A DNA stretch of 64,000 nucleotides from Scenedesmus sp. PABB004 (GCA_014905635.1 JABVCE010000009.1:992001-1056000); one strand, 5' to 3'; positions 1-63,316 are shown, counted from the stretch's first letter. Notes: generated by a model not told the origin, from the sequence alone. Numbers and translations are program-made.

Positions 1-1673
1 GCGGCGCGGCGCCGCCGATGATGATGCGGCGCAACGCGCCGCCCAGGCCCGTGCCGTGCGCCTCGGCGTGCTGCAGCAGGCCCAGCAGCACCGTCGGCAC
101 CGCCGCGGTCAAGTCGACCTGCGCGGCGGCGGCGCGCGTTTGAGGCGGCGCCCCCTGCTGCGGGGGCTGGGCGCGGCGCGGCGGCGCCCGCGGTGTGTGT
201 GGGCGCGCGCCGCGCCGCACGCGGTGCGTGTTGATCAGCTGGTGAATGGCCGCGCCGTCGAGGGCGGGCCCCGGCAGCACCAGCCGCGCGCCGACCATGG
301 GCGCCGCAAAGCTCAGCCCCCAGCTGTTGGCGTGAAACATCGGCACGATCTGGGCGCATGTGTGCGCACGGCGCGCCGCGCGGGCGGCGCGTGGGCGGCG
401 CGCACTTTCGGGCGGCGCGAGCGGCCCACGCGGGGTGAAGCGCAGCGCCCGCGCGGGACGCGGCGGCCCGCCCCGCACGCGCGTCACCATGAGCATGGAG
501 CTGGTGGCGCTGAGCGCGAGCGCGTCCGGCTGGGTGACCACGAATGCGTGCAGGAAGTTGCTGCGGTGGCTGTAGCGCACGCCCTTGGGCCTGCCTGCGG
601 CGCGCGCGGGGCGGCGGCGACGACGCACGTGCACACAGGGGCGGCGTGCCCGCTCGGCGGTCCGTGTGCTCGTCGCGGCCAGCCACGCTGCCAGCGCGCG
701 CGGCTGGCCGCGCACCCGTGGTGCCGGAGGTGTAGCAGAGGCCGGCGGGCGCGTTCTCGTCGAGGCGCGGCCACGCAAACCCCGCCAGCGCGTGCGCCGC
801 GCCGTCGAGCAGCTCCTCATAGCAGAGCAGGCGGCGCGGCAGGCCCGGACCGCCCGGCGCGGGCATGTGCTGCCGGTCCGTCAGCAGCACGACCGCCTCG
901 AGGCGGGGCAGGCTGCCGGCGATGCGCGCCAGCACAGGCAGGAAGGTCACGTCTGCCAGGATGACCTGGCGGCGCGTGCGCGCGGCGCAGCAGGGGGCGG
1001 CGGCGCCCCGTCGGCCGGCGGAGGGGCCGCAGCACGAGCGAGCCCGCAAGGCACGGCGCGCAGGGCACGGCGCGCAGGGCACGGCGCGCACGGCGAGGCG
1101 AAGCGGCGCGCAATAGGCACGGCGGGGTGCCGGGGGCGGCGAGCCCCCGCGCGCGCGCCCCGGTGGCGGCGGCGCGGCCGCGCCTTGTCCTGGCCGTGGT
1201 CGGCGATGTACCTGATGTCCTCGTCGCTCAGCCGCGGGTTGAGCGTGTGGCAGACGGCGCCAATGCCCATGATGCCGTACCTGCACGCGCGCCGCCGCGG
1301 TGCGCGCCGCCGCTCAGCGCCCGCCGGTGTCGCGCCGGCCGGCACGCCGTGCCAGCGCGGCGCGGCGCGGCGCGGCGTGGCGCGTCGCGCACCAGGCCTC
1401 GAGGTGGCGCGTCGTGTTCCAGGCGAGCGTGCCGACGACATCGCCGTGGCGCACGCCCAGCGCGCGCAGCGCGAGCGCGGCCAGGCGCGCGCGGCGGCCG
1501 AGGTCGCCATAGTTGCTGATGACCGTGGGGCCCTCCACCGTGCGGCACACGATCTCCGTGCTGCTGTGCCAGCGCTCCGCGTACTCGAGCACGGCCGTCA
1601 CCACGAGCGGCCAGTCCTGCATGCGCCCGCCGTCGTCGTCGGCGTCCATGGCTGCTGTGGACGCCCGCCCCAT
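1..1673 (-). CDS. Medium/long-chain acyl-CoA ligase, bacterial AlkK/DmdB-like family; multi-exon, 3' end runs off the window
   Basis: Spliced translation: MQDWPLVV..SSTEIVCRTVEGP..GDVVGTLAWNTTRHLEAW|YGIMGIGAVCHTLNPRL..DK|VILADVTFLP..LCYTSGTTG|RPKGVRYSHRSNFLHA..|IVPMFHANSWGL..|VDLTAAVPTV..IIIGGAAP. The AMP-binding motif YTSGTTGxPKG is present. Candidate ATGs at 1673 or 1649. Confidence 0.9.
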
Positions 1674-2089
1674 GGCAGCGCGCGCCGACGGCCGACGGCG
1701 ACGGCGGCAGCGCCTGGTAGCGACGGCGACGGCGCGGCGCGGCCGGCGGCCGGCGGCGACGGCGCGGCGCGCGGAGACGGCCGAGCAGCGCTTGGCGGCA
1801 GCCGCGGCCGGCCGTGCAACCGTGCGACCGCGACGATGAGTGGCACGCAACGCGCTGCGCGGCGTTGCGGCAGGCGGGCTGAGGAGCGCGGGGCGGCGCG
1901 GCAGCAGCAGCGTGCGCGGGTGCTGAGCTCCTCGAGCTGCGGAGCCCCGCAGCGGCGCGGCGGCTGCTACGGCGAGTGACAGCTGTGGCGGGCCGGACGC
2001 GCGGTCACACAGCGGGCGGCGGAGCCGCACGGGGCCCCGGCCCCGCGCAAAAGCGCCGCCGCGCCGCTCGCCGCGGCGCGCCCGCTGGC

Positions 2090-62087: not shown

Positions 62088-62566
62088 GGCGGCCTGCTGC
62101 CGCGGCACGCGGCCGGTGCGCAGCGCCTGCGCGAGCGCGCGGCGGCCGGCGTCGGCTGCGGCGGCCGTGCCGCGGCGCAGCCGGGCAGGCACGGCCGCGG
62201 CGGCGCCTGCGCTGGGAGCGGCGGCCGGCGCTGTCACTGATAGCGAGGCGGCCGACCACCGCCGCAGCAGCTCACCCCCGAAGTGCCGGCGGTGGCGCCG
62301 TCTGCTGCTGCGCTGCGCTGATGCCGCGGCGAGCCCGGCAGCGCGTGGGCGCGAAGACCGAGGGATTGAGAGCTCGGGCCGTCGACGGGCGGCCAGGGCG
62401 TGAGGGTGGCGCAGGGCTTTGCGGCGGCGGCGTCGCTGATGTGCCCCGGCTCCGCCGCCGCCGCCGGCCACACCCCTCCACGCCTGCCGCGACGTCACGC
62501 TCACGCCGTGAGCTGTCAGAGCCGCCAGCTCCTCGGCAGCACCAGCAGCAGGGGCGGCGGGCGAAA

Positions 62567-63316
62567 ATGCTGCGCCAGCCAGCAGCGCGCCTGCTCGCGC
62601 GCTGCCTCAGCCTGCAGCCCATCAGCAGCGGCGCGCCGGCGGCAGCGGGCCAGGTCGTGGCAGCAGCGGCAGCAGCGGCTGCCGCGACGCAGGCGCAGGC
62701 AGCGGCCGCGCCAGCGCGGGCGCAGCAGCAGCAGCGCCGAGCGCTGTCGAGCAGCAGCGATTGGCAGGCCGAGGTGCTGGCGCGGGTGGCGGCGCCTGGC
62801 GGCCCGCCAGCGCGCTAGGTGACCCGCGCGCGCCGATGCCTGCGCCGCTCATCGCCGCGCTCCGCCCGCCCCCGCCCGCCCGCTGCGCGCTGCGCTGCTG
62901 CTCTGCCGCCGCTGCTCTGCCGCCGCCGCCCGCCCTGCCGCCAGGTGGACCTCATCAACGAGAAGTTTGCCGAGGCGCGGGAGGAGATTGAGATGGCGCG
63001 CGACGACGCCGAGACTGTCTACTTCAACGAGAGCGCAGGCGCGGCCTGGCCGGCGACGCCCTGCGCCGCTGGCGGGGCCGGCTCACCCACGCCGCACAGC
63101 CGGCGGCCACAGAATCATCGCGCGCCGCACCACAATCACCGCGCGCGCCGCACCGCAGAGCTGGCGCGTAACGTCGTGGGCGAGGTGCTCGAGCGCTGGG
63201 GCGGCCTGCTCGCGTCCCTGCCGGACGAGGAGGCGGCGAAGCTGCAGCGCAGTATGGGGCTCAAGATCGAGCAGCTCAAGGCCGAGCTCAAGGAGCTGGA
63301 CGAGCTGCACGCGTGA
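62567..63316 (+). CDS. Conserved mitochondrial-targeted small helical protein (plant embryogenesis-like family); 3 exons
   Basis: Presequence MLRQPAARLLARCLSL..RRALSS, then VDLINEKFAEAREEIEMARDDAETVYFNESA|ELAR..LQRSMGLKIEQLKAELKEL, which I recognise from plant homologues. Confidence 0.8.

What the first reader, a model, noticed from the sequence alone, without database searches (positions are those of the whole stretch)
966..63158. Window-wide class of GC-AG introns with a fixed AG|GCGCG[CG] donor
At least 23 introns splice correctly only with a GC donor: 966-1183, 11483-11630, 21652-21768, 24376-24452, 25508-25608, 25731-25831, 32130-32275, 34066-34157, 35014-35141, 37497-37623, 38960-39059, 40255-40396, 52073-52183 (least certain), nine in PRMT5, and 63039-63158. 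Several are forced by invariant motifs (kinesin LVDLAG-SER, ERCC1 WSNE-ECARY, CCDC77 ELQK-ALSD), and 24376-24452 contains no GT at all. All 23 follow exonic AG; 22 read GCGCG[CG] and one GCACGG. That is roughly 1 in 5-6 of the introns I counted by hand, against about 1% in most eukaryotes (established; elevated GC use is known in haptophytes and dinoflagellates). Such a donor mismatches canonical U1 at +2 and +4, and AGGCGCG also occurs inside exons here. Inference: this lineage has an altered 5' splice-site recognition system, such as a variant U1/U6 or heavy reliance on U5-exon pairing.
Basis: partly seen in the sequence, partly recalled or inferred. Interest (0 to 1): 0.85.

Follow-up and report, generated by a model that had tools for sequence, protein, structure and literature searches.

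The report
Abundant GC-AG introns in GC-rich alga
About a quarter of the introns in this stretch of an extremely GC-rich green-algal genome begin with GC instead of the usual GT, which is real but matches a pattern already described in other GC-rich algae and needs no unusual splicing machinery.

Summary
All 23 claimed introns read AG|GCGCG[CG] (one GCACGG) ...AG. Fourteen are supported by spliced alignment to homologues or to identical public proteins: 9 in PRMT5, 1 in kinesin, 1 in ERCC1 and 3 in a CCDC77-like gene. A fifteenth is supported by consecutive Pfam profile positions. The rest rest on coding potential and motif only.

In a donor test trained on GT introns alone, AG|GCGCG was used in 22 of 81 occurrences, against 9 of 1451 for other AG|SSSSS words. 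My tally is 24 GC of 90 introns, or 14 of 42 in the homology-supported subset.

GC donors are the local GT consensus (AG|GTGCGS) with T>C at +2. They occur almost only in the best context: 23 GC and 18 GT in AG|G_GCG, against 1 GC and 48 GT elsewhere.

This fits GC pressure plus compensation within an ordinary spliceosome. The window matches proteins named Scenedesmus sp. PABB004, a 78.5% GC genome. Comparable GC-AG fractions with a canonical U1 5' end are published for Aureococcus and Micromonas (PMC3033335). The altered-U1 idea could not be tested here, because no genome and no RNA runs were available.

The parts
966..1183 (-). GC-AG intron (AAG|GCGCGG), 218 nt, in an AMP-binding enzyme gene
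   Evidence: Ab initio model. The length is not a multiple of 3, and coding log-odds fall from +1.1/+0.5 in the flanks to -0.7 inside. Pfam AMP-binding positions in the flanking exons (64-93, then 157-174 late in the next exon) are compatible in spacing, which is weak support.
11483..11630 (+). GC-AG intron (CAG|GCGCGG), 148 nt, in the kinesin motor domain (LVDLAG-SER)
   Evidence: Spliced alignment to P0012, P0014 and P0019. It is chosen in GT+GC mode with all three, and an unconstrained alignment gives the same 148-nt gap with all three.
21652..21768 (-). GC-AG intron (CAG|GCGCGG), 117 nt, in a gene with UBA domains
   Evidence: Ab initio only. The length is a multiple of 3 and read-through has no stop, so removal is not forced by frame. 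GC at codon position 2 is 0.95 inside against 0.45/0.55 in the flanks.
24376..24452 (+). GC-AG intron (AAG|GCGCGG), 77 nt, in a CCDC77-like gene; holds no GT
   Evidence: The 100%-identical public protein P0036 and the independent homologues P0043 and P0052 give the same 77-nt gap in unconstrained mode. No GT lies inside or within +-30 nt of the donor.
25508..25608 (+). GC-AG intron (CAG|GCGCGG), 101 nt, in the CCDC77-like gene
   Evidence: P0036, P0043, P0052 and P0062 all give a 101-nt gap here in unconstrained mode.
25731..25831 (+). GC-AG intron (CAG|GCGCGG), 101 nt, in the CCDC77-like gene
   Evidence: P0036, P0043, P0052 and P0062 all give a 101-nt gap here in unconstrained mode.
32130..32275 (+). 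GC-AG intron (GAG|GCGCGC ... TGTCAG), 146 nt, in ERCC1 (WSNE-ECARY)
   Evidence: The public protein P0033 (ERCC1, 100% identical) maps only with this intron: score 2716 in GT+GC mode and in unconstrained mode, 2663 with GT only. The Pfam Rad10 match ends at 32129.
34066..34157 (-). GC-AG intron (CAG|GCGCGC), 92 nt, in a gene of unknown family
   Evidence: Ab initio. Length mod 3 = 2, there is no GT within +-30 nt, and log-odds are -0.54 inside.
35014..35141 (-). GC-AG intron (CAG|GCGCGC), 128 nt, same gene
   Evidence: Ab initio. Length mod 3 = 2, there is no GT within +-30 nt, and position-2 GC is 0.98 inside against 0.40 in the flanks.
37497..37623 (-). GC-AG intron (CAG|GCGCGC), 127 nt, in the TH1/NELF-D gene
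   Evidence: Ab initio. Length mod 3 = 1, and log-odds are -0.75 inside.
38960..39059 (-). GC-AG intron (CAG|GCGCGG), 100 nt, in the TH1/NELF-D gene
   Evidence: Ab initio. In addition, the Pfam TH1 profile runs to position 174 just before the donor and resumes at 175 just at the acceptor, across a 100-nt gap.
40255..40396 (-). GC-AG intron (AAG|GCGCGC), 142 nt, in a polyprenyl synthetase gene
   Evidence: Ab initio. The upstream exon matches polyprenyl_synt positions 184-230 up to the donor. Length mod 3 = 1, and there is no GT within +-30 nt.
52073..52183 (-).
   Evidence: Ab initio only. The length is a multiple of 3 and read-through has no stop. Position-2 GC is 0.95 inside against 0.15/0.40 in the flanks.
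59015..59225 (-). PRMT5 GC-AG intron, 211 nt
   Evidence: Spliced alignment to P0001 and to four further homologues.
59334..59482 (-). PRMT5 GC-AG intron, 149 nt
59599..59720 (-). PRMT5 GC-AG intron (AAG|GCGCGC), 122 nt
59802..59912 (-). PRMT5 GC-AG intron with the GCACGG donor, 111 nt
60347..60490 (-). PRMT5 GC-AG intron, 144 nt
60552..60699 (-). PRMT5 GC-AG intron, 148 nt
   Evidence: It is exact with 3 of the 4 further homologues; P0008 picks a nearby variant.
60891..60996 (-). PRMT5 GC-AG intron, 106 nt
   Evidence: It is found with P0003 and P0008 but not with P0005 or P0006.
61591..61740 (-). PRMT5 GC-AG intron, 150 nt
61891..61997 (-). PRMT5 GC-AG intron, 107 nt
   Evidence: It is found with 3 of the 4 further homologues; the P0003 alignment starts downstream of it.
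63039..63158 (+). GC-AG intron (CAG|GCGCGG), 120 nt
   Evidence: Ab initio only. The length is a multiple of 3, there is no GT inside, and log-odds are +1.0/+0.5 in the flanks against -0.4 inside.
53072..53204 (-).
   Evidence: Ab initio. The flanks have poor coding scores (0.03 and 0.30), so it is a candidate only.

Best explanation
These are ordinary major-spliceosome (U2-type) introns whose donor has C instead of T at +2. They make up roughly a fifth to a quarter of the introns in this window of a 78-79% GC chlorophycean genome.

The lineage's donor consensus is (C)AG|GTGCG[CG]. The GC class is that same consensus with T>C at +2.

Inferred mechanism:
1. A strong AT-to-GC pressure (mutation bias and/or GC-biased gene conversion) keeps converting +2 T to C. 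The same pressure made the introns 87-89% GC.
2. The change survives only where the rest of the donor gives the best available pairing: A-2, G-1, G+1, G+3, G+5. That pairing is to the U1 5' end, and possibly to U5 loop I for the exonic AG.
3. No change of snRNA sequence is needed.

Shown here: the introns exist, GC and GT donors share one consensus, and GC donors are confined to the best context. Inferred: the direction of change (GT to GC), the driving force, and that U1, U5 and U6 are canonical.
For: Reality of the introns
- PRMT5 against P0001: GT-only score 1807, GT+GC 2433. An unconstrained alignment gives the same 12 intron lengths.
- Among 15 second donor dinucleotides added to GT, GC scored best: 2433, next CG 2377.
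- Each of four further homologues recovers 8 of the 9 PRMT5 GC introns exactly.
- Kinesin has 1 GC among 13 introns.
- ERCC1 and the CCDC77-like gene map to 100%-identical public proteins only with their GC introns.

Specificity of the motif
- AG|GCGCG was used in 22 of 81 occurrences, other AG|SSSSS words in 9 of 1451, and other NN|GCGCG in 14 of 2904.
- For AG|GNGCG the counts were GT 17/36, GC 22/81, GG 1/32 and GA 0/15.

Shared consensus
- GT class: +3 G 57/57, +4 C 39/57, +5 G 56/57.

Context restriction
- In AG|G_GCG there are 23 GC and 18 GT donors. In all other contexts there are 1 GC and 48 GT (p = 2e-9).
- Exonic AG: 14/14 GC against 12/28 GT in the homology-supported subset.

GC pressure
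- Intron interiors are 6.9% T and 45.5% C, a T:C ratio of 0.15. At +2 the ratio is 66:24. T is therefore still about 18-fold favoured, but not fixed.

U2-type signals
- CT[CG]AN is present in the last 65 nt of 33 of 82 introns, against 11 of 82 in a 5' control region.

Precedent in print
- High GC-AG fractions in GC-rich algae with a canonical U1 5' end (PMC3033335, passages).
- 56-65% GC donors in E. huxleyi (PMC4028052, passages).
- Compensation at GC 5' splice sites (PMC3167603, passage).
Against: - No RNA evidence: no sequencing run was listed, so splicing at these exact sites is inferred.
- The snRNAs of this organism were not seen.
- Both donor classes mismatch canonical U1 at +4 (mostly C) and +6, so some co-adaptation of U1, U6 or snRNP proteins is not excluded.
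- The authors of PMC3033335 themselves call the origin of abundant GC-AG introns an enigma. They note that GC content alone does not predict the fraction: Micromonas RCC299 has 2.7% at 64% GC.
- GC donors are very unevenly spread among genes (PRMT5 9 of 12, kinesin 1 of 13). A uniform mutation pressure does not by itself explain that.
- The ab initio part of the census used a donor matrix seeded on AG|GCGCG. Weaker GC donors would be missed, and AG-dependence in that part is partly circular. The homology subset and one search are not.
Confidence: 0.75

Rival explanations
1. The lineage has altered 5' splice-site recognition. It could be a U1 (or U6) snRNA with a changed 5' end, an extra U1 variant that pairs with C at +2 and/or +4, or changed U1 snRNP proteins, any of which would make GCGCG donors fully competent.
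For: The consensus of both donor classes has C at +4 (39/57 GT, 25/25 GC) and C/G at +6. These mismatch the canonical U1 5' end as quoted in PMC3033335. In the best context GC donors outnumber GT donors, 23 to 18. PMC3033335 leaves base modification or U1 snRNP proteins open as explanations for other algae.
Against: GC donors need a stricter context than GT donors (exonic AG 14/14 against 12/28). That is expected for a tolerated mismatch, not for a matched partner. GT donors remain the majority (66 of 90). In Aureococcus and Micromonas pusilla, which have 22-40% GC-AG, the U1 5' end is canonical (PMC3033335, discussion passage).
Confidence: 0.12
2. The GC donors are deliberately weak sites kept for regulation, through intron retention or splicing-efficiency control. 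An example would be feedback on PRMT5, whose product methylates Sm proteins. This reading can coexist with the best explanation.
For: PRMT5 carries 9 GC among its 12 introns, against 15 of 78 elsewhere. On the earlier 82-intron set, Fisher gave p = 8e-4, a post hoc test. None of the 22 GC introns with a modelled phase has a stop when read through. High intron retention accompanies GC donors in E. huxleyi (PMC4028052, passages). The link between PRMT5 and weak 5' splice sites is recalled knowledge, not checked here.
Against: The enrichment is a single post hoc observation on one gene. The absence of stops follows from 90% GC and is not specific to these introns. No expression data are available.
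Confidence: 0.08
3. Artefact. Either the +2 C is a sequence error, or the introns are mis-modelled and the true donors are nearby GT sites or the segments are translated.
For: No reads could be laid. Nine introns rest on ab initio evidence only. Three of those nine have lengths divisible by 3 and no stop. One of my own ab initio GC calls (23177-23307) was contradicted by the public protein, which uses a GT at 23204.
Against: GT-only alignments lose 49 to 626 score units in all four genes tested. Ten of 25 GC donors have no GT within +-30 nt, and 19 of those 25 introns break the frame if kept. Coding log-odds and position-2 GC switch sharply at the boundaries. An error hitting 24 of 90 donors at +2, while 36 AGGTGCG words stay intact, is not credible.
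Confidence: 0.03
4. The GC-AG introns are copies of a mobile 'introner' element that carries its own GC donor.
For: The introns share GC-rich ends and similar lengths, for example two of 101 nt in one gene. BLAST finds many weak hits among introns.
Against: The best inter-intron match is 83% over 112 nt. It lies in (GGCGC)n-like low-complexity sequence, in either orientation, and links GT as well as GC introns. The two 101-nt introns are unrelated in sequence. Complementarity between the two ends of an intron is barely above that of shuffled partners: 6.6 against 6.35 nt.
Confidence: 0.02

Closest known systems
Abundant U2-type GC-AG introns of GC-rich algae: Aureococcus anophagefferens 39.6%, Micromonas pusilla 22.2%, Chlorella sp. 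7.7% (Iwata and Gotoh 2011, PMC3033335; passages read)
   Same: A high fraction of GC donors with an AG acceptor in a very GC-rich nuclear genome, green algae included. It is attributed to genomic G+C.
   Different: This genome is more GC-rich: 78.5% for the genome (PMC12571836, table passage) and 79.4% for the window. The donor word is very rigid (AG|GCGCG[CG]). The strict restriction to the best context is shown here. I did not check whether it was shown for those species.
Emiliania huxleyi, where GC is the majority donor (56-65%; Feldmesser et al. 2014, PMC4028052; passages read)
   Same: GC-AG with a canonical AG acceptor, attributed to high GC content. Ab initio annotation tends to miss such introns.
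   Different: It is a haptophyte, not a green alga. GC donors are the majority there and the minority here (24 of 90). It also has about 4% GA donors; I did not search for GA donors, since my models allowed only GT and GC.
Human and other GC 5' splice sites with a compensating stronger consensus (Kralovicova et al. 2011, PMC3167603; abstract and passages read)
   Same: The GC class has a stronger remaining consensus than the GT class. Here that means exonic AG and +3 to +5 GCG.
   Different: The frequency is about 1% in human against about 25% here. The local consensus is GTGCGS rather than GTRAGT.
Chlamydomonas reinhardtii, a chlorophycean relative: 532 GC-AG against 25053 GT-AG EST-supported introns, 2.1% (PMC2846911, Table 2 passage)
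   Same: Same algal class. Named relatives of the window's proteins are Sphaeropleales and Chlamydomonadales.
   Different: The GC-AG fraction is about ten-fold lower, at about 64% genomic GC (that GC value is recalled).
U12-type (minor) introns and introner elements
   Same: Both are known sources of non-GT or stereotyped intron ends.
   Different: No donor here resembles the recalled U12 box [AG]TATCCTT: all GC donors read GC[GA]CG. There is no repeat family among the introns.

Membership tests
U2-type GC-AG introns | G at +1, C at +2, AG at the 3' end, at a position where an intron must be removed | tested here: met
   Fourteen introns fixed by spliced alignment. Within the 0-4 nt slide allowed by repeated CAG, GC-AG is the only G...AG solution.
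U2-type GC-AG introns | The rest of the donor follows the species' GT consensus, and more strictly | tested here: met
   The GT class reads GTG[C>A>G]G[C/G] and the GC class reads GCGCG[C/G]. Exonic AG is 14/14 against 12/28, and +4 C is 14/14 against 20/28.
U2-type GC-AG introns | A U2-type branch site upstream of the acceptor | tested here: inconclusive
   CT[CG]AN occurs in the last 65 nt of 33 of 82 introns against 11 of 82 in a control region. For the GC class alone it is only 7 of 25.
U2-type GC-AG introns | Actually spliced at these junctions in RNA, by the major spliceosome | not testable with these tools
   No sequencing run was listed. No genome is held for an snRNA search.
U12-type (minor) introns | A rigid donor box ([AG]TATCCTT; recalled) | tested here: not met
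   None of the 25 GC donors carries it. They read GCGCG[CG] (23), GCGCAG (1) or GCACGG (1).
Introner elements (transposon-derived intron families) | Many near-identical copies, often with terminal repeats or target-site duplications | tested here: not met
   All-against-all BLAST of 83 introns gave only low-complexity matches, at most 83% over 112 nt. Complementarity of intron ends is at the level of shuffled partners. This covers the window only, not the genome.
Lineage with altered U1/U6 recognition | An snRNA 5' end or ACAGAGA box differing from the canonical sequence | not testable with these tools
   The window has no Rfam hit and no genome is held.

The most novel reading that the evidence does not exclude
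This is the most GC-rich sequenced member of the Sphaeropleales (78.5% GC). In it, the 5' splice-site reader itself may have shifted. The shift could be a changed or additional U1 5' end, a U6 or U5 change, or changed U1-C/LUC7-type proteins, tuned to G[T/C]GCGS. GC donors in the AG|G_GCG context would then be effectively neutral, which would explain why they outnumber GT donors there (23 to 18). A second, independent possibility is that the 9-of-12 concentration in PRMT5 marks a feedback loop between Sm-protein methylation and the use of weak donors.
Probability: 0.12. Interest if true: 0.7.

Novelty: new member of a known kind. Interest (0 to 1): 0.38.

Why it matters
Practical. In this genome, gene finders that insist on GT donors will break or mis-frame many genes. 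PRMT5 cannot be modelled at all without nine GC donors. Any re-annotation or comparative work on this alga should allow AG|GCGCG[CG] donors.

Conceptual. The window gives an unusually clean picture of how far base-composition pressure can erode the most conserved splice signal. The +2 T is lost in about a quarter of donors, but only where every other pairing position is optimal. This bears on the 'enigma' of abundant GC-AG introns raised in PMC3033335. It is testable by comparison with lower-GC relatives in the same order.

It is not evidence for a new kind of splicing machinery.

Tried and rejected
RNA and genome access
- No run was listed for window:31500-41000, so read laying was never used.
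- No genome is held for the window, so U1, U5 and U6, genome-wide donor counts and splicing-factor genes could not be examined.
- The Rfam scan of the window gave 0 hits at gathering threshold.

Ab initio runs that failed
- With a diluted GC matrix and a penalty of 22, self-training collapsed to GT-only models. I kept those models as an unbiased parameter set.
- An unconstrained run either called no introns or chained the whole minus strand into one 'gene'. Both were discarded.

Ideas rejected
- Introner or hairpin origin of the introns.
- My own extra GC call 23177-23307, which the public protein contradicts with a GT at 23204.

Literature (all 10 searches used)
- 'GC-AG' with Chlorophyceae or with Scenedesmus returned only irrelevant papers.
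- Two broad multi-term searches listed nothing that holds 'GC-AG'.
- The search for the strain name found 15 papers. In the one I read, PMC12571836, 'intron' and 'splice' occur 0 times.
- I therefore found no printed description of GC-AG use in this organism. Subscription journals and supplements were not searchable.
- The attempt to document the Chlamydomonas donor consensus failed. That consensus is recalled only.

Other
- The earlier-findings look-ups gave nothing on this genome, and two unrelated Ostreococcus notes.
- Pfam on single exons flanking seven ab initio introns was informative only for the AMP-binding and polyprenyl synthetase genes.
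Full report
**What the window is.** The 64 kb are 79.4% G+C, and every 4-kb block lies between 76% and 82%. A six-frame Pfam scan of all 398 stop-to-stop frames of at least 100 aa found eukaryotic genes on both strands. They are an AMP-binding enzyme, a RING protein, a kinesin, a cyclin, a UBA protein, ERCC1, TH1/NELF-D, a polyprenyl synthetase, eIF4E, a glycosyltransferase, DUF1499, a CAP protein and PRMT5. 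The nearest named relatives of PRMT5 and the kinesin are chlorophycean green algae: Monoraphidium, Raphidocelis, Chromochloris and Chlamydomonas. An ERCC1 exon is 100% identical to an NCBI protein named 'ERCC1 [Scenedesmus sp. PABB004]'. A published table gives that genome as 39.8 Mb, 77 contigs and 78.5% GC (PMC12571836, passage). No whole genome, no Rfam hit in the window and no sequencing run were available. Everything below therefore rests on DNA, homology and statistics, not on RNA.

**The observation at the stated coordinates.** All 14 listed introns read exonic AG, then GCGCG[CG], and end in AG on the appropriate strand. To find the PRMT5 introns I wrote a protein-to-genome spliced aligner. 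It can restrict donors and acceptors or leave them free.
- Against the closest homologue (P0001, 59% identical), GT-only donors gave 1807 and GT+GC gave 2433.
- The unconstrained alignment gave 2392 with a higher intron penalty. It found the same 12 introns with the same 12 lengths, displaced by 0-4 nt because exon and intron both end in CAG.
- Nine of the 12 are GC-AG (eight GCGCG[CG], one GCACGG). Three are GT-AG (GTGCGC, GTGAGC, GTGCGC).
- As a control I added each of the other 15 dinucleotides to GT. GC was best (2433), followed by CG 2377, CC 2267 and CA 2252.
- Four further homologues all preferred GT+GC over GT-only: 1949 vs 1441, 1755 vs 1252, 1522 vs 1072 and 1314 vs 990. Each recovered 8 of the 9 GC introns exactly.
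- The resulting model is a 657-aa protein running from Met to stop, with 96.7% GC at third codon positions.

**Other genes tested by homology.**
- *Kinesin.* Three homologues give 13 introns between 8314 and 12237, 12 GT and one GC (11483-11630). In unconstrained mode the GC intron appears as a 148-nt gap with all three. With P0012, 12 of the 13 lengths are identical in unconstrained mode, and the last differs by 3 nt. Two further GC calls in the poorly aligned N-terminus lack the consensus, and I disregard them.
- *ERCC1.* The identical public protein P0033 maps with two GT introns and the GC intron 32130-32275. The score is 2716 in both GT+GC and unconstrained mode, and 2663 with GT only. 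The public annotation therefore already uses this GC donor.
- *CCDC77-like gene.* A 100%-identical 840-aa protein (P0036) maps with 11 GT and 3 GC introns, scoring 4052 against 3683 for GT only. The independent homologues P0043 and P0052 give the same 77-, 101- and 101-nt gaps in unconstrained mode. The more distant P0062 gives two of the three.
- *Total.* 42 introns are supported by homology or by an identical public protein, and 14 of them are GC-AG.
- *TH1.* For 38960-39059 the Pfam TH1 profile is consecutive (174, then 175) across a 100-nt gap.

**Census without homology.** I built a small gene finder. It combines codon log-odds against intron trinucleotides, donor and acceptor weight matrices, and dynamic programming on each strand.
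- Seeded with the nine PRMT5 GC donors, it converged on 53 GT and 24 GC introns.
- It recovered 13 of the 14 listed coordinates. At the fourteenth (32130-32275) the model simply broke.
- Varying the intron penalty changed the GT count from 27 to 98. The number of AG|GCGCG donors stayed between 17 and 25. The extra GC calls at lenient settings were long and lacked the consensus.
- After corrections from homology, my set is 90 introns with 24 GC (27%). With the lenient GT count the share is about 21% (24 beside 91).

**Is the motif more than chance in 79% GC DNA?** I re-ran the finder with codon, intron and acceptor parameters trained on GT-only models, and let whole classes of words act as donors at one fixed score.

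| Word class | Used as donor |
|---|---|
| AG\|GCGCG | 22 of 81 |
| other 31 AG\|SSSSS words | 9 of 1451 |
| NN\|GCGCG with NN other than AG | 14 of 2904 |
| AG\|GTGCG | 17 of 36 |
| AG\|GGGCG | 1 of 32 |
| AG\|GAGCG | 0 of 15 |

With parameters that had seen GC introns the picture is the same: 23 of 81 against 12 of 1451.
- Of the 25 GC introns in the earlier set, 19 have lengths not divisible by 3, 10 have no GT within +-30 nt of the donor, and 6 have no GT inside at all.
- Across the 22 GC introns with a modelled phase, coding log-odds fall from +0.03..+1.2 in the flanks to -0.36..-1.0 inside. GC at codon position 2 rises from mostly 0.3-0.6 in the flanks to 0.75-1.0 inside. The weak candidate 53072-53204 is the exception.
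- Three ab initio-only introns (21652-21768, 52073-52183, 63039-63158) have lengths divisible by 3 and no stop. Their removal is indicated by composition only.

**What the donors look like.** In the earlier 82-intron set the GT class (57) reads G|GTG[C 39, A 10, G 6, T 2]G[C 38, G 17]. The GC class reads AG|GCGCG[C/G]. It is the same word with T>C at +2.
- In the homology-supported subset, which is free of my matrix, exonic AG precedes 14 of 14 GC donors but only 12 of 28 GT donors (p = 0.0002). +4 is C in 14/14 against 20/28.
- Over all 90 introns, the context AG|G_GCG holds 23 GC and 18 GT donors. Every other context together holds 1 GC (GCACGG, still after AG) and 48 GT (p = 2e-9).
- Acceptors are CGCAG|G-like in both classes: -3 C 82/82, -4 G 75/82 and -5 C 74/82.
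- A CT[CG]AN branch-like word is enriched near the 3' end: 33 of 82 against 11 of 82 in a control region, at a median of 37 nt from the acceptor.
- The introns are not copies of one another.
- Their ends are not more complementary than shuffled pairs: 6.6 against 6.35 nt.

**How it most likely works.** Intron interiors hold 6.9% T and 45.5% C. The base-composition pressure at unconstrained sites therefore favours C over T about 7 to 1. At +2 the ratio is 66 T to 24 C, so T is still favoured roughly 18-fold but no longer fixed.

GC appears only where A-2, G-1, G+3 and G+5 are all in place. This is the pattern described for GC 5' splice sites elsewhere. The +2 mismatch to U1 weakens the site, and the rest of the consensus compensates (PMC3167603, introduction passage). 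With the canonical U1 5' end (AUACUUACCUG, as quoted in PMC3033335), the exonic (C)AG adds two or three pairs that make up for the lost +2 pair. The same AG could also act through U5 loop I; that is recalled knowledge, and the two cannot be separated here.

I therefore read the class as ordinary U2-type GC-AG introns. They accumulated under AT-to-GC pressure and are tolerated only in the strongest context. The existence of the introns, the shared consensus and the context restriction are shown. The direction of change, the driving force and the canonical state of the snRNAs are inferred.

**Comparison with what is known.** Very high GC-AG fractions in GC-rich algae are in print.
- Aureococcus 39.6%, Micromonas pusilla 22.2% and Chlorella sp. 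7.7%. The authors ascribe this to genomic G+C, but call the origin an enigma and point to Micromonas RCC299 (2.7% at 64% GC) as a counter-example. They found the U1 5' end canonical in all three picoplankton genomes examined (PMC3033335, passages).
- E. huxleyi has 56-65% GC donors with AG acceptors (PMC4028052, passages).
- Newer pelagophyte annotations give 14-17% (bioRxiv 10.1101/2024.10.30.620910, passage).
- Chlamydomonas reinhardtii has 532 GC-AG against 25,053 GT-AG (PMC2846911, Table 2).
- For this organism I found no printed statement on splice sites. Supplements and subscription journals could not be searched.

The finding is thus a new, rather extreme member of a known kind, not a new kind.

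**What remains open.** Both donor classes carry C at +4 and C/G at +6, which mismatch canonical U1, and the snRNAs could not be inspected.

The uneven spread among genes is unexplained. PRMT5 has 9 of 12, kinesin 1 of 13 and the CCDC77-like gene 3 of 14. It is a post hoc observation.

Decisive tests are junction reads, an Infernal scan of the assembly for U1, U5 and U6, a genome-wide donor table, and orthologous-intron comparison with lower-GC Sphaeropleales.

Noticed in passing
window 58462-62087 (-), PRMT5: GC donors are concentrated in PRMT5: 9 of its 12 introns, against 15 of 78 in the rest of my set. On the earlier 82-intron set, Fisher gave p = 8e-4, a post hoc test. PRMT5 methylates Sm proteins (recalled), so a link to splicing of weak donors is conceivable but untested.
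   Followed up: partly
all modelled introns, e.g. 8314-8386, 60020-60174: The acceptors have a rigid CGCAG|G word (-3 C 82/82, -4 G 75/82, -5 C 74/82) and no visible polypyrimidine tract. Introns are 87-89% GC with only about 6-7% T.
   Followed up: partly
22 GC-AG introns with modelled phase: None has a stop codon when read through in frame (22 of 22). The three ab initio introns whose length is a multiple of 3 would give in-frame insertions if retained.
   Followed up: no
window 22619-26686 (+): The 100%-identical 840-aa public protein P0036 carries about 400 residues upstream of the part that matches CCDC77-like homologues, which are 450-520 aa long and align from about residue 330-400 on. 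It may be two genes fused in the public model.
   Followed up: no
PRMT5 (58462-62087) and kinesin (about 7700-12324): The protein searches for these two genes returned no 100%-identical public protein: the best hits were 59% and 85%. ERCC1 and the CCDC77-like exon did return one. The public models of these genes may be missing or differ in length. The searches were length-limited, so this is only a hint.
   Followed up: no
window 60020-60174 (-) and other introns: Introns contain runs of short GC-only repeats. The GT intron of PRMT5, for example, holds a long (GGCGC)n-like run. These runs cause the many weak BLAST hits between unrelated introns.
   Followed up: partly
last 65 nt of introns: Where the CT[CG]AC branch-like word is absent, C[CG][CG]A[CG] words without T are common: 41 of 82 introns, but also 30 of 82 in the control region. 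It is not clear whether branch sites have also lost their T.
   Followed up: partly
window 16304-17392 (-), cyclin: The cyclin N- and C-domains lie in one uninterrupted frame. The window therefore mixes intron-poor stretches with genes such as PRMT5 that have an intron about every 160 coding bases.
   Followed up: no
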